Below the pieces are notes generated by a model. It was not told the DNA's origin, made no database searches, and saw only the letters and a program-made list of their open reading frames with translations. The position numbers and the translations under genes were made by a program. Source: an uncultured Chloroflexia bacterium (GTDB taxonomy: Bacteria; Chloroflexota; Limnocylindria; Limnocylindrales; CSP1-4). Taken from it: DNA of 64,000 nt. Below are positions 53,849-58,746 of the stretch, one piece after another (the first letter of the stretch is position 1; each line of letters begins with the position of its first letter). Location: positions 864,001 through 928,000 of the forward strand of contig CAWHXD010000019.1 in the NCBI GenBank assembly GCA_963833225.1. The letters are read 5' to 3'.

Positions 53849-54805
53849 CTACCACCGGTCTGCCCCGCGGCCGGCCCTGCCGCGCAGGTGAGCGAGCACC
53901 TGCGGATCGATCCAGCCCGGCGCCGCGGTCCGCTCCTCCAGGTTCTCGACCGCCATCCACGCCAGCAGGCGATCCTGCCAGGCGGGATCCCAGCCATCCG
54001 GCAACGGTCGTGGCTCACCGACGCTGGGCCGCGATTCCTCGGGCTCGGCCTCGTCCGGCCACATCGGGACGTAGAGGGAGCTGCCGGCGTTGGCCGGATC
54101 CCAGCCGAGGTGCCCGAGATGGCCGCGGATCTCGGCAGCCAGCGACGCGTCGAGGGCGACGAGGTCGGCGGGTGCCGGCCGGTCGAGGAGCAGGTGCGTG
54201 AGCTGGAGGAGGCGGCCAAGCTCGCCGACCGGGTCCGCGTGGTCGTCCACGCGGAGGTCGATCCAGCGATCGTTGGCGCCGCCATAGCCGCCGCCCTCGC
54301 GCACGATCAGCAGGGCCGCCGACTGACGCCCACGCCGGTCGCCACCCGCCGCATCGGCCGCGGCGAGACAGGTCACCAGGAGCTCGGGGAATGGATGGCC
54401 CGCGGCTTCGAACGTGTCCGCCAGCGCATCGACGACGCCGGCGCCGGCGAGGATGTTGCCCTGGGCCGCGTAGCCGGGTCCGGTTCGGCCGCCCGCCCAG
54501 GCAAAGCACGAGCGGCCCGTGTACGTGGCCGATCCACCGCTCGCGTCCACGATGCCGGCCTGGCGCTGCGATCGGAGCGGGTCTGCCTCGACGAGCGAGG
54601 CGAGGGTGGCTTCCGCGTCGGTTCCGCCCGCGAGCATCGCCAGCCCATCGGGCCCGTAGGTGACGTTCGCGTAGGACTGGGTCGCGATCGCCCCAACGCC
54701 GGCGCGCGCCCACGGCACCACCGATCCCACGGACAGGAACTTGGACTGGACGGCGATGCCTAGGTCGCCGGTGGCGCGGTCCCGCGCAACGATGGAGTAG
54801 GTCAT
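53849..54805 (-). CDS. DUF1028 domain protein (Ntn-hydrolase-like)
   Basis: MTYSIVARD, VGAIATQS, QGNIL, GGDRRGRQSAAL, DLRVDDH. Confidence 0.92.
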   Translation of the reverse strand: MTYSIVARDRATGDLGIAVQSKFLSVGSVVPWARAGVGAIATQSYANVTYGPDGLAMLAGGTDAEATLASLVEADPLRSQRQAGIVDASGGSATYTGRSCFAWAGGRTGPGYAAQGNILAGAGVVDALADTFEAAGHPFPELLVTCLAAADAAGGDRRGRQSAALLIVREGGGYGGANDRWIDLRVDDHADPVGELGRLLQLTHLLLDRPAPADLVALDASLAAEIRGHLGHLGWDPANAGSSLYVPMWPDEAEPEESRPSVGEPRPLPDGWDPAWQDRLLAWMAVENLEERTAAPGWIDPQVLAHLRGRAGRGADRW

Positions 54806-54904
54806 GGCGGGTGCCTCCTTGGCGGCCAGCGTAGCGCGCCGGGTGGGGGAGACGGACGAGCCGCACGCGTCGATCGCGGGCGGCTCGCCTGACTGCGCGA
54901 GATG

Positions 54905-54953
54905 GGCGGGTCGATGCCCGCGTGGCTGCAGGGTCCGGCGGGTCGATGCCCGC
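54905..54953. repeat. Duplicated 17-bp hairpin element GGCGGGTCGATGCCCGC
   Basis: Identical copies at 54905 and 54937, each GCGGG-6 nt-CCCGC. Confidence 0.7.
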
Positions 54954-54958
54954 CTCGA

Positions 54959-55343
54959 TCAGCTCCTCGCCAGCGAGTCCCGGATCTGGGTCAGCAGCTT
55001 GACCTCGTCGGACGGCTCCGCGGGCGCTGCCGGCTCCTCCTTGATCAGCGGCCCTCCCGATCAGGAACACGACCAGCGCGACCACCACGAACACGATCAC
55101 GACCTGGATGAAGTTGCCCCAGCGGATCGCGACCTCCGTGGCCGCATCGCCACCAACCGCCTCCTTGAGCACGATCTTGAGCGCCGTGAAGTCGACGCCG
55201 CCGAGCAGCACGCCGATGGGCGGCATGATGATGTCGGCGACGAGCGAGGACACGACGCTGCCGAGCGCGCCGCCGATGATCACGCCGATGGCCAGCGCGA
55301 GCGCATTCGTCTTGGTCAGGAACGCCATGAACTCCTTGAGCAC
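54959..55343 (-). CDS. mscL: Large-conductance mechanosensitive channel (frameshift near 55050)
   Basis: MLKEFMAF..ALAIGVIIG..SSLVADIIMP..GGVDF..WGNFI, then EVKLLTQIRDSL in another frame. Confidence 0.92.
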
Positions 55344-55359
55344 CGTGTATCACCCTCCC

Positions 55360-55908
55360 TCAGGTGGCCGCATGACCGGGCATGCGGCCGTACAGGTCAA
55401 ACCTTATGGTGCCTCGCGCACCTCGGCCAGTTCGCGCACACTCGGTCATCCCCAGCACCCCGAGCAGGCGATCCACGAACGTCGCCTGGGCCGGATTGAG
55501 CCGCCGCCTCGCCTCGGAGGGGCTGGCCCACAGCACCCGATCGATCTCCGGGACGCTGATCATGCGGCCGGACCGCGGTGGCCACTCGACCTCGGCCCGC
55601 ATGCTCACGAGCCGGCCTGGGTCCAGGTCGCCCTCCTGGGCGAAGGCATGGACGACCTTGCCCGAGCGCATCCGGACCTCGCCCAGATCCTGCACCTCGC
55701 CGTCGGGCGGCCGCTGTCCGGTCTCTTCCTCGAATTCGCGCCTCGCCGCCGCGAGCAGCTTCTCGTCGGGGAGCGGTGCGCCCTTGGGGAGCGACCAGGC
55801 GCCGGCGTCGCGACGTGCCCAGACGGGGCCGCCGGGGTGGGCGACCAGGACCTCGAGCCCGTCGGCGGGGCGACGGTAGAGGAGCAGACCGGCGGACAGC
55901 TTGGCCAT
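55360..55908 (-). CDS. NUDIX hydrolase
   Basis: SAGLLLYR, HPGGP, WSLPKG..AARREFEEETG, EWPPRSG, PEIDR. Confidence 0.9.
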   Translation of the reverse strand: MAKLSAGLLLYRRPADGLEVLVAHPGGPVWARRDAGAWSLPKGAPLPDEKLLAAARREFEEETGQRPPDGEVQDLGEVRMRSGKVVHAFAQEGDLDPGRLVSMRAEVEWPPRSGRMISVPEIDRVLWASPSEARRRLNPAQATFVDRLLGVLGMTECARTGRGARGTIRFDLYGRMPGHAAT

Positions 55909-55942
55909 GGGCTTCCCGATCCTGCGCGGCGCACACGAAAGC

Positions 55943-56121
55943 GCCCGAAGGAACCGTACCGCACCGACTCGCCCACGACACTGCCAAGCAAGCTCGGCCC
56001 TGCCGCAGCGGCTCCAGTCCCACCACCCCTTCGGCCTTGCGGCCTCCGTGGCGGCGGTTCCGGGGACCCGGTCCGATCATCGCTGACCGGTCCGGCGTCG
56101 GTACCACCGGCCCCTTCGGGC
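55943..56121 (-). ncRNA. 179-nt rod-shaped structured RNA, 6S RNA candidate
   Basis: Ends pair (GCCCGAAGG/CCTTCGGGC, GTACCGAC/GTCGGTGC), internal hairpins, dedicated sigma70 promoter placing +1 at the stem's 5' end. Confidence 0.6.
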
Positions 56122-56128
56122 AAACCGA

Positions 56129-56157
56129 ACGATATCGGTCGGGGAGGGAGGTGCCAA
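56129..56157 (-). promoter_or_regulatory. sigma70 promoter of the ncRNA
   Basis: TTGGCA (56157-56152)-17 bp-TATCGT (56134-56129). Confidence 0.7.
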
Positions 56158-56162
56158 CCAGG

Positions 56163-56237
56163 TTGTCCACGAGTTTCGGTCCGGTGACGGCGAAGTTGTC
56201 CACGACTGCGACGCGCGCGTGGACAACCTGTGGACAG
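56163..56237. promoter_or_regulatory. Cluster of four DnaA-box-like 9-mers
   Basis: TTGTCCACG at 56163 and 56196 (+); CGTGGACAA at 56218 and TGTGGACAG at 56229 (reverse orientation). Confidence 0.6.
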
Positions 56238-56243
56238 CCGGCC

Positions 56244-56876
56244 TCACGCTTCCTCGGTGATCACGCCTCGCGCCGAGCGGGCCGGGGCGACCTCGTGATG
56301 GCGCAGGCAGCGCGCCTCGTACGTCTCGACCGCGGGGCCGTCGAAGCCGCCGATCACGATCAGCGGGTCGTCGATGGCGGCGGGCCGGCCGCCGACCAGG
56401 CGCTGGGTGCGTGTCGCCGTCTCGCCGCACACGACGCAGATCGCCGAGAGCATCGTGATCTCGTCCGACATGGCGAGCAGCGCCGGCATGGCGCCGAACG
56501 GGCGTCCGGCGAAGTCCGTGTTGAGGCCGCTGGCGATCACGTGGCGGCCCGACTGGCGCAGCATGTCCGCGACCTGCGCGACCGACTCGTCGAAGAACTG
56601 GGCCTCCTCGATGCCCACGAGGTCCACATCACGCTCGCGCGCGAGCGAGAGGATCTCGACGGGCTTGCCCTTGGGGACCAGCACGGACGGGTAGCGGGCC
56701 TTGCTCCGGCTCTCCGCGTAGTCGCTGGGCGTCCGGTCATCCACGTCCGGGCGGACGAGCAGGATCCGGCGCTTGGCGATCTCCGCCCGGCGGAGCAGGC
56801 GCAGCAGCTCGTCGGTCTTGCCCGACGACATGCAGCCGGCGATGACGTGGAGCCAAGGATCGGCGCGGTAGAGCAC
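56244..56876 (-). CDS. tdk: Thymidine kinase
   Basis: GCMSSGKT, IEEAQFF, GLNTDFAGRPF, CVVCG..TQR, YEARCLRH. Confidence 0.93.
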   Translation of the reverse strand: MLYRADPWLHVIAGCMSSGKTDELLRLLRRAEIAKRRILLVRPDVDDRTPSDYAESRSKARYPSVLVPKGKPVEILSLARERDVDLVGIEEAQFFDESVAQVADMLRQSGRHVIASGLNTDFAGRPFGAMPALLAMSDEITMLSAICVVCGETATRTQRLVGGRPAAIDDPLIVIGGFDGPAVETYEARCLRHHEVAPARSARGVITEEA

Positions 56877-56984
56877 GGTCCGAATCTACCGGCTCGGGGC
56901 CTCTTTCCGCTGGCACCTTCACCGCCCGGAGCCACCCGCGACCCGAGCCGCCCATGCGGCGTGCCGGGCGTAGGCTTGCGCGCG

Positions 56985-57918
56985 ATGCACGCGATCGACG
57001 TCGAGGAGCTGGCAAAGCACTACGGGCCGGTGCGCGCCCTCGACGGGGTGACGCTCGAGGTCCGGCCCGGCGAGATCTTCGGCTTCCTCGGCCCCAACGG
57101 CGCGGGGAAGTCGACCCTGATCCGGCTGCTGCTGGGCTTCATCCACCCGACGGCGGGGCGGGGGAGCGTGCTGGGGCTCGACATCGTGGGGGATTCGGTC
57201 GCGATCCGGGGCCGGATCGGCTACCTGCCGGGCGGGATCGCGCTCGACGACAACCTCACCGGCGAGCGCCACCTCGACGATCTCGCCGCGCTCTCCGGTC
57301 GCCCACCGGTCCGCCGGGCGGCCATCTGCGATGCCCTGGAGCTGTCCGCCGCGATCCTGCGCCGCCCGATCCGCGACTACTCGCGCGGGATGCGCCAGAA
57401 GATCGGGATCGTGCAGGCGCTCCAGCATGACCCGGAGCTCGCCATCCTCGATGAGCCGTCCGAGGGCCTGGATCCCTTGATGCAGCGGGCCTTCTACGAG
57501 GTGCTCGAGGCGGCGCGAGCCGCGGGGCGGACGGTGTTCTTCTCGTCGCACGTGCTGTCCGAGGTGGAGCGCGTCTGCGACCGGGTCGCCATCGTCCGCG
57601 CCGGCCGCCTCGTCCTCAGCGGTGACGTCGCGACCCTTCGGGCCCAGCGGCGACGCCGGGTGGAGCTGCGGTTCGACGGTCCGGCACCGGAGCTGGGCGG
57701 CGTGGCAGGGGTCAGCGACGTGGACGTCGACCACGTCGGCGGCTTCCTCACCTGCGCCCTCGCCGGTGATCCGCGGGCGTTCCTCGACGCGATCCGCAGC
57801 GCGGCGGTCAGCGACCTCTCGATCGAGCCGGCGCGGCTCGAGGACGCGTTCCTCGAGCTCTACGCGGGCGAGGCGGCTGCCGAAGCCTCAGCCATCGCTC
57901 GGGGTCGACGGCCGATGA
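56985..57918 (+). CDS. ABC transporter ATP-binding protein (3' end uncertain; reads through into the permease)
   Basis: GPNGAGKST, YSRGMRQK, ILDEPSEGLD, SSH, LEDAFL; start MHAID. Confidence 0.9.
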
Positions 57919-58746
57919 ACGCCGGCCCGAAGCGCGCCATCCTGAGCGTGCCGCTGATGCGCCGGACCTGGCGGGCGCAGCGTTCCCGGGTCGCGCTGGT
58001 CTGCGTCGGGCTCGCGATCTGGGCGTTCCTGATGCCCGTGATCTACGCGACGTTCGGTCGACAGCTCGCGGTCCTGCTCGACACCGGGATCATCCCCAAG
58101 CCATTCCTGCGCCTCCTTGGCGCCGACCCGTTCAGCCTCACGGGCGCCGTCGCCCTCGGGTGGATCCACCCCATCGGCATCGGGCTGTTCGTGCTGTTCC
58201 CGATCGGTCTGGGCGCGGCGATGATCGCCGGGGAGCGGCAGCGGGGAACGCTCGAGATCCTGCTGTCGCGGCCGCTCTCCCGCCGGGCGCTGTTCGTCAC
58301 CCACCTGGTGACGCTGGCGTTGATCTCCGCGCTGGTCGTGGCGGCTGCGCTCGCCGGGACGCTGGCCGGGTCCGCCGCGTACGGGGTGGTCGACGGGCTT
58401 CCCGTCGCGAACCTCGTGTTCCTCGCGCGTCAACACGTGGCTGTTCCTCGTGGCGCTGGCGGCCGTTGCCCTTGCCGCATCGGCCTCCTTCGACCGGCTC
58501 GCGACGCCGGTGGGCATCGGGTTCGCGGTGCTCCTGATCGGGTACCTGCTCGAGGCCCTGGGCACCCTCTGGCCCGACGCCGCGTTCCTCCAGCCGTGGA
58601 CCCCGTTCCACTACCTGCGCCCGCTCGAGATCCTCGGCGGGACCGGCACGGTCGGCGACCTGCTCGTGCTGGCCGGGCTCGCGGTGGCGGCGACCGCGTA
58701 CGGCCTGTGGCGATTCCCGCGGCGGGACCTGGCGGCGCCGAGCTGA
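57915..58746 (+). CDS. ABC-2 type permease (frameshift near 58427)
   Basis: TM segments, AGERQRGTLEILLSRPLSR, continued in ORF 58450..58746 with TPFHY..FPRRDL. Confidence 0.85.

What the first reader, a model, noticed from the sequence alone, without database searches (positions are those of the whole stretch)
55943..56157. Unannotated 179-nt promoter-driven rod-like RNA (6S-like or new class)
Seen: on the minus strand TTGGCA-17-TATCGT places +1 near 56122, exactly where GCCCGAAGGGGCCG..GTACCGAC begins; this pairs with GTCGGTGC..CGGTTCCTTCGGGC ending at 55943, followed by CTTT. Inside are hairpins CCGGTCA-GCGA-TGATCGG, GGCC-GCAA-GGCC (GNRA loops) and CCGAGC..GCTTGG. Established: 6S RNA is ~180-200 nt with a closing stem and central bubble. 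Inference: a divergent ssrS or an Ms1-like RNAP-binding RNA; side hairpins on both strands make it atypical.
Basis: partly seen in the sequence, partly recalled or inferred. Interest (0 to 1): 0.72.

Follow-up and report, generated by a model that had tools for sequence, protein, structure and literature searches.

The report
DnaA-box-driven paired-end small RNA family
This is a real, expressed gene for a tightly folded small RNA of about 180 bases, one of at least four related RNA genes in an uncultured soil Chloroflexota genome that all share the same paired ends and a promoter flanked by replication-initiator (DnaA) binding motifs; it is not a recognisable 6S RNA.

Summary
On the minus strand, the only sigma-70-like promoter found in 1.6 kb (TTGGCA-17-TATCGT) precedes a very stable fold (-117.8 kcal/mol, z -5.6). 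RNA-library contigs from two studies span only 55941-56121.

The 6S/Ms1 reading does not hold.
- There is no Rfam hit.
- The organism is Chloroflexota (Limnocylindria-type MAGs), not an actinobacterium.
- The fold is a covariation-supported four-way junction, not a rod with a bubble.

New here: the RNA is the largest of at least four paralogues in this genome (186, 161, 145 and 80 nt).
- All begin with GCCCGAAGGGGC (the 145-nt copy with a compensated variant) and end with its G.U-containing complement.
- All are followed by a weak U-rich tail.
- All sit behind a GTGGAYAA (DnaA-box) site exactly 5 bp upstream of the -35 element.

This box-promoter-arm signature occurs in 127 of 151 genomes of the family (45 of 49 genera), 1-4 times per genome, never in the reversed control. 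It was found in 0 of 267 Chloroflexota genomes outside the class.

Flanking genes differ between lineages, so it is a stand-alone gene, not a NUDIX leader.

Most likely it is a DnaA-gated, trans-acting, protein-binding or scaffold RNA. The partner is unknown. Rsr, CsrA and Hfq were not found.

The parts
55941..56121 (-). Transcribed small RNA (type 1 member). The 5' end is G56121. The observed 3' limit is 55941-55944, and the true end probably lies in the UUUCGUGU that follows.
   Evidence: Whole RNA-library contigs of 181 nt (run X2) and 170 nt (run X5) cover only this stretch. No contig from RNA runs X2, X3 or X5 covers 56122-56322. Fold z is -5.63.
56108..56122 (-). P1 5' arm (U-GCCCGAAGGGGCCG), invariant core.
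   Evidence: 11 of 15 pairs never vary in the genus. The arm is the same in 44 family-wide representatives.
55942..55956 (-). P1 3' arm (CGGUUCCUUCGGGCG), which pairs with the 5' arm through two invariant tandem G.U pairs.
   Evidence: The G.U pairs make the helix specific to this strand. Paralogues show compensatory changes in this helix.
56101..56104 (-). P2 5' strand, a short extension of the closing helix.
   Evidence: helix 2: the pair 23:170 is C-G in 16 sequences and U-A in 14.
55961..55964 (-). P2 3' strand.
   Evidence: helix 2.
56065..56099 (-). Hairpin H1 with a GNRA loop (GCGA).
   Evidence: helix 3: 4 of 14 pairs have compensatory changes (for example G-C in 25 and C-G in 10). It is conserved family-wide.
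56014..56063 (-). Hairpin H2, long, with internal loops and a C(GCAA)G tip.
   Evidence: helices 4-6; tip pairs with 7-20 compensatory sequences.
55970..56010 (-). Hairpin H3 with a CUUG loop.
   Evidence: helices 7-8. In another lineage this arm carries a GAGAUCACAUCAAGG motif instead.
55933..55940 (-). U-rich tail (UUUCGUGU) after P1, the likely termination tract.
   Evidence: It reads UUUUUUGUGU in L043 and L046. RNA contigs stop just before it. The simple terminator scan did not call it.
56129..56134 (-). -10 hexamer TATCGT.
   Evidence: It is conserved across the genus.
56152..56157 (-). -35 hexamer TTGGCA.
56163..56170 (-). Proximal DnaA-box-like site GTGGACAA (= TTGTCCAC), 5 bp upstream of the -35 element.
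   Evidence: The 5-bp spacing is fixed in all paralogues and genera.
56196..56203 (-). Second DnaA-box-like site GTGGACAA, 33 bp from the proximal one and in the same orientation.
56218..56226 (-). DnaA-box-like 9-mer TTGTCCACG in the opposite orientation.
56229..56237 (-). DnaA-box-like 9-mer CTGTCCACA in the opposite orientation.

Best explanation
The locus is an independent gene for a highly structured small RNA of about 181-186 nt. It is the largest of at least four paralogous 'paired-end' small RNAs in this Chloroflexota (Limnocylindria-type) genome.

Shown:
- Each paralogue has a sigma-70-type promoter.
- Each has a DnaA-box-like site (GTGGAYAA) exactly 5 bp upstream of the -35 element, plus two or three further boxes upstream.
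- Each transcript starts with GCCCGAAGGGGC or a compensated variant, and ends with its complement carrying two G.U pairs.
- The two ends form a 13-15 bp helix followed by a weak U-rich tail.
- The interior is a variable cassette of one to six hairpins capped by GNRA or CUUG tetraloops, or by a recurrent GAUCAC(A/C)UCAAGG motif.
- A discrete RNA of this size is present in RNA libraries.

Inferred:
- The terminal helix doubles as terminator and end protection, and is the common handle for an unknown protein.
- The RNAs act in trans as protein-binding decoys or scaffolds rather than by base pairing, because almost no conserved single-stranded sequence is left.
- Their transcription is set by DnaA occupancy of the boxes, probably as activation given the position just upstream of the -35 element. 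This would tie their level to replication-initiation status.
For: Fold and covariation:
-.
- Independent folds of 48 de-replicated representatives give the same 'closing helix plus three hairpins' shape in 40 of 48.

Expression and ends:
- Whole RNA contigs from two studies cover 55941-56121 and 55944-56113, while a probable DNA run reads through.

Conservation of the type 1 RNA:
- 35 of 36 genomes of the genus by BLAST.
- One copy each in 54 of 151 family genomes, 24 of 49 genera, with a genus-trained model.
- 35 of 44 family genomes with a broader model.

Stand-alone gene:
- tdk and NUDIX flanks occur only in the own genus, plus NUDIX alone in two further loci, of 27 loci examined.
- Other lineages have MFS, or pyrophosphatase plus LigT, as neighbours.

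Paralogues:
- Four in the own genome.
- Eight and 22 more in relatives, 73-259 nt, with the same arms, boxes and promoter.
- P1 compensation between paralogues: C-G to U-A, A-U to G-C, and A-U to G.U to G-C.

Signature GTGGAYAA-N5-TTG-N32-36-GCCYGRAGGGGC:
- 127 of 151 family genomes, 1-4 per genome, with 0 reversed-pattern control hits.
- With one mismatch, f1 58 of 60.
- 0 of 267 genomes outside the class.

Boxes:
- In the own genome the only clusters of three or more exact 8-mer boxes are at three of these RNA genes.
- Similar boxes lie in the dnaA-dnaN spacer and upstream of parA.
- There is one bona fide DnaA with its DNA-binding domain.
Against: - No protein partner is identified. Rsr/TROVE was found in 0 of 61 family genomes. 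CsrA and Hfq were not found in the own genome, which is 86% complete.
- DnaA binding is inferred from sequence only. The presumed oriC spacer has poorer boxes than these promoters, so another factor recognising GTGGAYAA is possible.
- The type 1 RNA of this genus lacks the repeated GAUCAC motif that gives other paralogues their sponge-like look.
- Contigs cannot show strand, exact ends or abundance.
- One RNA contig of a relative (run X3, 55833-56115) continues into the NUDIX gene, so read-through occurs or DNA contaminates that library.
- The invariance of P1 could partly reflect a DNA-level constraint on the initially transcribed region.
- The simple terminator scan finds no canonical terminator.
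Confidence: 0.55

Rival explanations
1. It is the functional 6S or Ms1 analogue of this class. The RNA binds RNA polymerase, H1 and H3 melt or flank a promoter-like bubble, and the paralogues are 6S-1/6S-2-like variants.
For: - The size of about 181 nt and the paired ends fit.
- Rfam 6S is found in 35 of 151 Chloroflexota genomes but in 0 of 15 genomes of this class plus the own genome. The 6S niche therefore looks empty.
Against: - No Rfam similarity even at E 10.
- H1 and H3 are GC-rich, tetraloop-capped and kept by compensatory changes, which leaves only a few unpaired junction bases.
- Canonical Chloroflexota 6S genes fold as rods and lack the box cluster.
- The shared features (arms, promoter) extend to paralogues of 73-85 nt that cannot mimic an open promoter.
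Confidence: 0.12
2. The RNAs are DnaA-controlled base-pairing regulators. A loop or junction sequence, for example the GAUCACAUCAA motif, is a seed that pairs with mRNAs, and the closing helix only stabilises and terminates the RNA.
For: - The loop motif is conserved in many paralogues.
- The paired-end design would stabilise an antisense RNA.
Against: - The type 1 RNA of this genus has no such motif and almost no conserved unpaired stretch.
- The strict motif occurs in the own genome only inside the paralogues; the 24 relaxed hits are otherwise in coding-looking sequence.
- Hfq was not found.
Confidence: 0.15
3. The functional unit is the DNA: a DnaA-titrating or DnaA-recycling box cluster (datA/DARS-like), with transcription through the neighbouring stable RNA only modulating box occupancy.
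For: - There are three to four well-matched boxes at fixed spacing, better than in the dnaA-dnaN spacer.
- There are several such loci per genome.
Against: This would not explain the RNA-level constraints:
- strand-specific G.U pairs;
- compensatory changes in P1, P2 and H1-H3;
- conservation of three or more orthologous RNA types across genera.
Confidence: 0.1
4. It is a cis-acting 5' leader (a riboswitch or attenuator) of the downstream NUDIX gene.
For: - Only 33 nt separate the end of P1 from the NUDIX start codon.
- One RNA contig of a relative runs from the RNA into the NUDIX gene.
- The NUDIX gene lies downstream in the genus and in two other loci.
Against: - In 21 of 27 loci examined the RNA has other neighbours.
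- Paralogues sit in unrelated contexts.
- RNA contigs from two studies stop at the end of P1.
- No known riboswitch family matches.
Confidence: 0.05
5. It is a mobile or selfish element (MITE-like, or of plasmid or phage origin) with terminal inverted repeats.
For: - Identical ends flank variable interiors.
- There are several copies per genome.
- Positions differ between lineages.
Against: - The 'repeats' pair only as RNA: G.U on one strand means C.A on the other.
- Copies are 1-4 per genome and orthologous types are stable.
- Each copy has its own promoter.
- There is no similarity to plasmid or phage records.
Confidence: 0.03

Closest known systems
6S RNA (Rfam RF00013)
   Same: - A trans-acting RNA of about 180 nt.
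- The 5' and 3' ends pair into a closing helix.
- It has its own promoter.
- No other 6S candidate is detectable in this class.
   Different: - No covariance-model match.
- A four-way junction instead of a rod with a large bubble.
- An invariant closing-helix sequence.
- Up to four paralogues down to 73 nt that share ends and promoter.
- DnaA-box promoter architecture, which is absent from six canonical Chloroflexota 6S loci.
Ms1 RNA of Actinobacteria (PMC9130861; abstract start and passages seen)
   Different: - The host is Chloroflexota.
- About 181 nt rather than about 300 nt.
- The flanks are not HAD-IB hydrolase and oxidoreductase.
- There is no sequence or model similarity.
Bacterial and eukaryotic Y RNAs (features recalled, not from a call)
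   Same: - Several paralogous small RNAs per genome.
- A conserved helix formed by the 5' and 3' ends, with variable interiors.
   Different: - The defining partner Rsr/Ro (TROVE domain) was found in 0 of 61 family genomes.
- No Rfam Y-RNA-type match.
- No tRNA-like module was recognised.
CsrB/RsmZ-type protein-sponge RNAs (features recalled)
   Same: A modular RNA built of a variable number of similar hairpins. Some paralogues carry two or three copies of one loop motif.
   Different: - The motif is GAUCAC(A/C)UCAAGG, not GGA.
- CsrA was not found.
- A common closing helix is not a Csr feature.
DnaA-regulated promoters and DnaA-box clusters outside oriC (B. subtilis DnaA regulon, E. coli datA/DARS; recalled). 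Also the cell-cycle-linked ncRNA CcnA of Caulobacter (PMC8959179, listing and abstract start only).
   Same: - Clusters of DnaA-box 9-mers beside a promoter.
- A noncoding RNA tied to a replication or cell-cycle regulator.
   Different: - Here the boxes head a whole family of structured RNA genes with a fixed 5-bp box-to-(-35) spacing.
- I found no description of a DnaA-box-controlled sRNA family.

Membership tests
6S RNA (RF00013) | Match to the family covariance model at or above the gathering score. | tested here: not met
   - No match in the window.
- None at E up to 10 in 55600-56500.
- None in the whole genome at E up to 10.
- None in 12 diverged orthologue loci.
6S RNA (RF00013) | Rod-like fold: closing stem, a large central bubble that mimics an open promoter, and a terminal stem. 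| tested here: not met
   - The consensus is a four-way junction.
- The would-be bubble strands form H1 and H3, with 98-99% of cells paired and compensatory changes.
- Canonical Chloroflexota 6S loci fold as rods.
6S RNA (RF00013) | Binds the sigma-70 holoenzyme and templates product RNAs. | not testable with these tools
   Needs RNAP co-purification and small-RNA sequencing.
Ms1 RNA | Conserved flanks (HAD-IB hydrolase or phosphoserine phosphatase, and an oxidoreductase) and an intergenic region over 300 nt, in Actinobacteria. | tested here: not met
   - The flanks are thymidine kinase and a NUDIX hydrolase.
- Record titles name Chloroflexota and Ca. Limnocylindrales.
- The criteria come from passages of PMC9130861. 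Its supplementary figures were not seen.
Ms1 RNA | Binds the RNA polymerase core. | not testable with these tools
   Biochemical.
Y RNA | An Rsr/Ro60 (TROVE-domain) protein is encoded in the genome, usually nearby. | tested here: not met
   PF05731 gave 0 of 1 for the own genome and 0 of 61 for family genomes, 44 of them high quality.
Y RNA | A conserved helix formed by the 5' and 3' ends, shared by paralogues with variable interiors. | tested here: met
   This is a resemblance in design only.
CsrB/RsmZ sponge RNAs | Multiple GGA-containing hairpin loops, and CsrA present. | tested here: not met
   - Loops are GNRA, CUUG or GAUCAC-type.
- PF02599 was not found in the own genome, which is 86% complete.
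DnaA-box-controlled promoter | 9-mers close to TTWTNCACA (consensus recalled) clustered at the promoter. | tested here: met
   - Four boxes match TTGTCCAC or TGTCCACA and are conserved with the promoter in 27 of 27 loci shown.
- The proximal box has a fixed 5-bp spacing.
- The three clusters of three or more exact 8-mers in the genome are all at these RNA genes.
DnaA-box-controlled promoter | DnaA binds the boxes and changes transcription. | not testable with these tools
   Needs EMSA or ChIP and reporter assays. A single DnaA with its DNA-binding domain is encoded.
Any described RNA family (Rfam 15) | Any covariance-model match. | tested here: not met
   Searches covered the window, the region, 12 orthologue loci and 20 paralogue loci. 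The only matches at these loci were a tRNA, a sub-threshold c-di-GMP-II hit and a weak radC hit, all elsewhere in the flanks.

The most novel reading that the evidence does not exclude
These RNAs are a previously unknown RNA arm of the DnaA regulon. Their promoters read DnaA activity, and their invariant tandem-G.U terminal helix, with or without the GAUCAC hairpins, sequesters or scaffolds a still unidentified replication or cell-cycle protein. This would couple chromosome initiation to another process in Limnocylindria. It would be a new functional class of bacterial small RNA rather than a divergent 6S, Y or Csr RNA.
Probability: 0.25. Interest if true: 0.85.

Novelty: new variant of a known kind. 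Interest (0 to 1): 0.7.

Why it matters
The class Limnocylindria is known here mainly from metagenome-assembled genomes, many from soil, sediment and water samples.

- No 6S RNA could be detected in the class (0 of 15 sampled genomes plus this genome).
- I found no description of small RNAs in it.
- Here a whole family of expressed, strongly structured RNAs emerges, with a clean and searchable signature: DnaA box, promoter, invariant paired ends.

If DnaA really controls them, they would be a rare case of structured non-coding RNAs wired to the replication initiator. Their natural paired-end design would then be a model of how bacteria build stable decoy RNAs.

The signature also gives a ready covariance model and pattern for annotating these genes in several hundred MAGs.

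Tried and rejected
- **Rfam.** At gathering and E-value thresholds on the window, orthologues and paralogues, nothing relevant turned up.
- **SRP RNA.** A normal small SRP RNA lies elsewhere, at C8:773306-773405.
- **Y RNA.** No TROVE gene was found.
- **CsrA and Hfq partners.** Neither was found in the own genome, which is only 86% complete.
- **Origin of replication at the locus.**
  - dnaA and a box-bearing dnaA-dnaN spacer lie on another contig.
  - The GC skew of contig C19 is weak. Its cumulative maximum near the locus is close to the contig end, so I treat it as uninformative.
- **Second DnaA-like factor.** The second PF00308 hit is an IS21 IstB helper.
- **Plasmid or phage origin.** No BLAST match.
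- **mRNA sites carrying the GAUCAC motif.** The strict form occurs only inside the paralogues.
- **A conserved neighbouring gene as partner.** None was found; there are three different synteny groups.
- **Coverage gap upstream of the RNA.** The RNA-library contigs leave 56122-56322 uncovered in runs X2, X3 and X5. A gap in contig cover is only a weak hint.
  - A first all-against-all flank comparison timed out and was redone on 47 representatives.
  - One call with 102 sources was rejected for size and resent with 100.
- **Earlier notes of this scan.** None bears on the RNA.
- **Literature.** Searches for a prior description found nothing: Limnocylindria + RNA motif, Ellin6529 + small RNA, and DnaA box + sRNA terms.
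  - The Chloroflexi-1 motif paper was seen only as a listing. That motif is in Rfam by my recollection and did not match.

Full report
**1. The observation**

- On the minus strand, TTGGCA (56157-56152), a 17-nt spacer and TATCGT (56134-56129) form the only sigma-70-like site between 55300 and 56900. Fifty dinucleotide shuffles gave a mean of 0.0 sites.
- From about 56122 the sequence UGCCCGAAGGGGCCG pairs with CGGUUCCUUCGGGCG, which ends at 55942 and is followed by UUUCGUGU.
- As RNA the minus strand folds at -117.8 kcal/mol, against -91.2 +/- 4.7 for 200 shuffles (z -5.63, none as good).
- The plus strand reaches only z -1.91. This fits the two G.U pairs in the closing helix, which would be C.A mismatches on the other strand.
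The overall shape, however, is a closing helix (P1 plus a short P2) with three hairpins H1-H3. That is a four-way junction, not a rod.

**2. It is transcribed as a discrete RNA (weak-hint level)**

- Four runs were laid.
- In a biofilm metatranscriptome (run X2), a contig of 181 nt in total covers exactly 55941-56121, with 3 differences.
- In a bioreactor metatranscriptome (run X5), contigs of 170 nt in total cover 55944-56113 (3 differences, depth 125.7) and 55941-56109 (21 differences, a relative).
- No contig of the three RNA runs X2, X3 and X5 covers 56122-56322. The run that is probably DNA (X1) crosses the whole region on an 8124-nt contig.
- The 5' limit, G56121, lies 8 nt after the -10 hexamer.
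- Caveats:
  - Contigs show neither strand nor exact ends.
  - RNA libraries can hold DNA.
  - One estuary contig of a relative (run X3, 55833-56115) continues about 100 nt downstream into the NUDIX gene.

**3. Conservation and structure**

- The element is single-copy in the own genome by BLAST.
- It is present at 77-99% identity in 35 of 36 other genomes of the genus.
- In 36 aligned sequences the RNAalifold consensus has 57 pairs.
- 98.7% of cells are standard pairs. Ten pairs carry compensatory changes, against 4.2 +/- 1.2 in column shuffles (0 of 500 reach it) and 0-5 when partners are slid by 1-3 columns.
- Examples: pair 23:170 is C-G in 16 sequences and U-A in 14; pair 41:48 is G-C in 25 and C-G in 10.
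- A model trained on the genus (R1) finds exactly one copy in 54 of 151 genomes of the taxonomic family (24 of 49 genera; 53 of 150 without the unpublished genome G141).
- A broader model (R2) finds it in 35 of 44 family genomes and in none of 106 genomes of four sister families.
- From 152 collected sequences, 48 were kept after k-mer de-replication. Forty of these fold independently into the same 'closing helix plus three hairpins' shape. The other eight have two to six hairpins or nested variants.
- Across the family the interior drifts freely, while the two arms are almost invariant.

**4. Who carries it**

- Among the 80 records listed, nearly all are MAGs titled Chloroflexota, Chloroflexia or Candidatus Limnocylindrales. 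A few are labelled Anaerolineaceae or Thermomicrobiales, and one Patescibacteria.

**5. It is a stand-alone gene**

- tdk upstream and NUDIX downstream are kept only in the own genus, with NUDIX alone in two further loci. The other 21 of 27 loci examined lack both.
- A flank comparison of 47 representatives gives three synteny groups: tdk/NUDIX; unknown/MFS transporter; and unknown/inorganic pyrophosphatase plus LigT-like phosphoesterase.
- What travels with the RNA is its upstream region.
- In all 27 loci displayed there are two TCCACA-type boxes, two GTGGA(C/T)AA or GGGGATAA boxes in the opposite orientation, a -35 TTG, and a -10 TAnnnT. The RNA start follows.
- Within the genus the boxes are 90-100% conserved, while the spacers between them are not.

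**6. The unexpected part: a paralogous family**

- Weaker R2 hits of 83-150 nt in relatives turned out to have the same first and last 13-16 nt, the same boxes and the same promoter.
- The own genome holds at least four members:
  - C19:919940-920125, 186 nt, which is this finding;
  - C8:72963-73123, 161 nt, with three CUUG-capped hairpins;
  - C7:560112-560256, 145 nt, with three GAGAUCAC(A/C)UCAAGG hairpins;
  - C19:161376-161455, 80 nt, with one such hairpin.
- The C7 copy has changed arms (GUCCGAGGGGGC with GUUUCCUCGGAC). These keep pairing through two double substitutions, C-G to U-A and A-U to G-C.
- Twenty-two further paralogues of 73-259 nt show A-U, G.U or G-C at another arm position. 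So P1 is an RNA helix, not merely a repeated DNA word.
- The composite signature is GTGGAYAA-N5-TTG-N32-36-GCCYGRAGGGGC.
  - It occurs in 127 of 151 family genomes, 45 of 49 genera, 1-4 times each. The reversed-pattern control gave 0 hits in every genome. Without the unpublished G141 and G197 the count is 125 of 149.
  - With one mismatch it is in 58 of 60 genomes of the family, 1 of 7 and 5 of 66 genomes of two sister families, and 0 of 66 of a third.
  - In a phylum-wide draw it is confined to this class: 0 of 267 genomes of all other Chloroflexota families.
- Recurrent promoter and start variants indicate at least three orthologous types kept across genera. In several genomes two members sit about 250 bp apart.
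- None of 20 paralogue loci matches any Rfam family.

**7. The boxes**

- GTGGACAA and GTGGATAA are the reverse complements of TTGTCCAC and TTATCCAC. That is the DnaA-box core as I recall it (consensus TTWTNCACA).
- The genome encodes one full DnaA with its C-terminal DNA-binding domain. The second hit is an IS21 IstB.
- The dnaA-dnaN spacer on contig C6 carries GTGGACAAC and several looser boxes next to an A+T-richer stretch.
- Two exact 8-mers lie upstream of parA.
- Genome-wide there are 110 exact 8-mers, against 85 for a reversed control. Only six clusters of two or more lie within 130 bp.
  - The three clusters with three boxes are three of the RNA genes. The fourth RNA gene appears in the looser 6-mer scan.
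  - Of the three two-box clusters, one is upstream of parA, one is at another promoter-like site (C6:30458) and one is inside a UvrA-like coding sequence.
- The proximal box always sits 5 bp upstream of the -35 element, roughly -49 to -42 from the start. This suggests activation, which is an inference.
- DnaA binding itself is not shown.

**8. What it is not**

- Not a recognisable 6S.
  - There are no model hits.
  - Rfam 6S detects 35 of 151 Chloroflexota genomes but none of 15 in this class. A functional replacement therefore cannot be excluded.
  - Six canonical Chloroflexota 6S genes are rods without box clusters.
- Not Ms1: synteny, size and taxon all fail.
- Not SRP RNA, which is found elsewhere.
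- Not a Y RNA, since no TROVE gene was found in 61 family genomes.
- Not a Csr-type system or Hfq-dependent as far as an 86%-complete genome shows.
- Not plasmid or phage DNA.
- Not a NUDIX riboswitch (section 5).

**9. How it most likely works**

Shown:
- a promoter with boxes;
- a discrete RNA;
- a covarying four-way junction;
- shared paired ends among paralogues with modular interiors made of very stable tetraloop hairpins.

Inferred:
- P1 plus the U-rich tail terminates transcription and shields both ends.
- With almost no conserved unpaired sequence, the RNAs more plausibly bind protein than mRNA. The binding element would be the invariant tandem-G.U helix as a common handle, and the repeated GAUCAC hairpins in some members.
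- DnaA occupancy sets their level.

I put about 0.9 on 'real independent small-RNA gene of a new family'. I put about 0.5 on DnaA control and about 0.55 on the combined statement. Rivals are scored in their own section.

**10. Novelty**

- The family has no match in Rfam 15.
- My searches found no description of it.
- In design it resembles Y RNAs (shared terminal helix, variable interior) and sponge RNAs (repeated hairpins). It fails their defining tests.
- I file it as a new variant of a known kind, the structured trans-acting bacterial small RNA, with a real chance of being a new functional class.

Noticed in passing
own genome outside the window: C8:72963-73123 (+), C7:560112-560256 (+), C19:161376-161455 (-): Three further members of the same RNA family (161, 145 and 80 nt), with the same paired ends, DnaA-box-like sites and promoter. 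The C7 copy has compensated arm changes and three GAGAUCAC(A/C)UCAAGG hairpins.
   Followed up: yes
relatives, e.g. G085:C86:635-977, G103:C1:144325-144646, G448:C2:666885-667199: In several genomes two family members lie in tandem about 250 bp apart, each with its own box and promoter.
   Followed up: no
own genome C8:444241-444275: Two exact DnaA-box 8-mers lie in an A+T-richer stretch just upstream of a ParA/Soj-like gene. This is a possible origin-proximal element, separate from the dnaA-dnaN spacer at about C6:94160-94240.
   Followed up: partly
own genome C6:30458-30494: A TTATCCACA box and a GTGGACAA box precede a TTGACG-17-TACCGT promoter-like site whose transcript does not start with the family arm. 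This may be another target of the same regulator.
   Followed up: no
window 54015-55343 (-): A 442-aa ORF has only its first 100 residues matching MscL (E 3e-29). Typical MscL proteins are, as I recall, about 130-150 aa, so it carries a long unexplained C-terminal extension.
   Followed up: no
window 56919-57734 (-) and 57888-58565 (-): Two ORFs (271 and 225 aa) upstream of tdk have no Pfam match.
   Followed up: no
L054:2042-2148 (+): A sub-threshold match to the c-di-GMP-II-GAG riboswitch (34.9 bits against a gathering score of 40, E 0.003) lies about 400 nt from the RNA gene in a related genome.
   Followed up: no
own genome C7:17775-21149 (L184): An IS21-type pair: a transposase with an integrase core, plus the IstB helper.
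   Followed up: partly
L244 (G136:C81:1-340): A 259-nt family member carries about eight C(GCAA/GCGA)G-capped hairpins between the same arms. It is the most expanded cassette seen.
   Followed up: no
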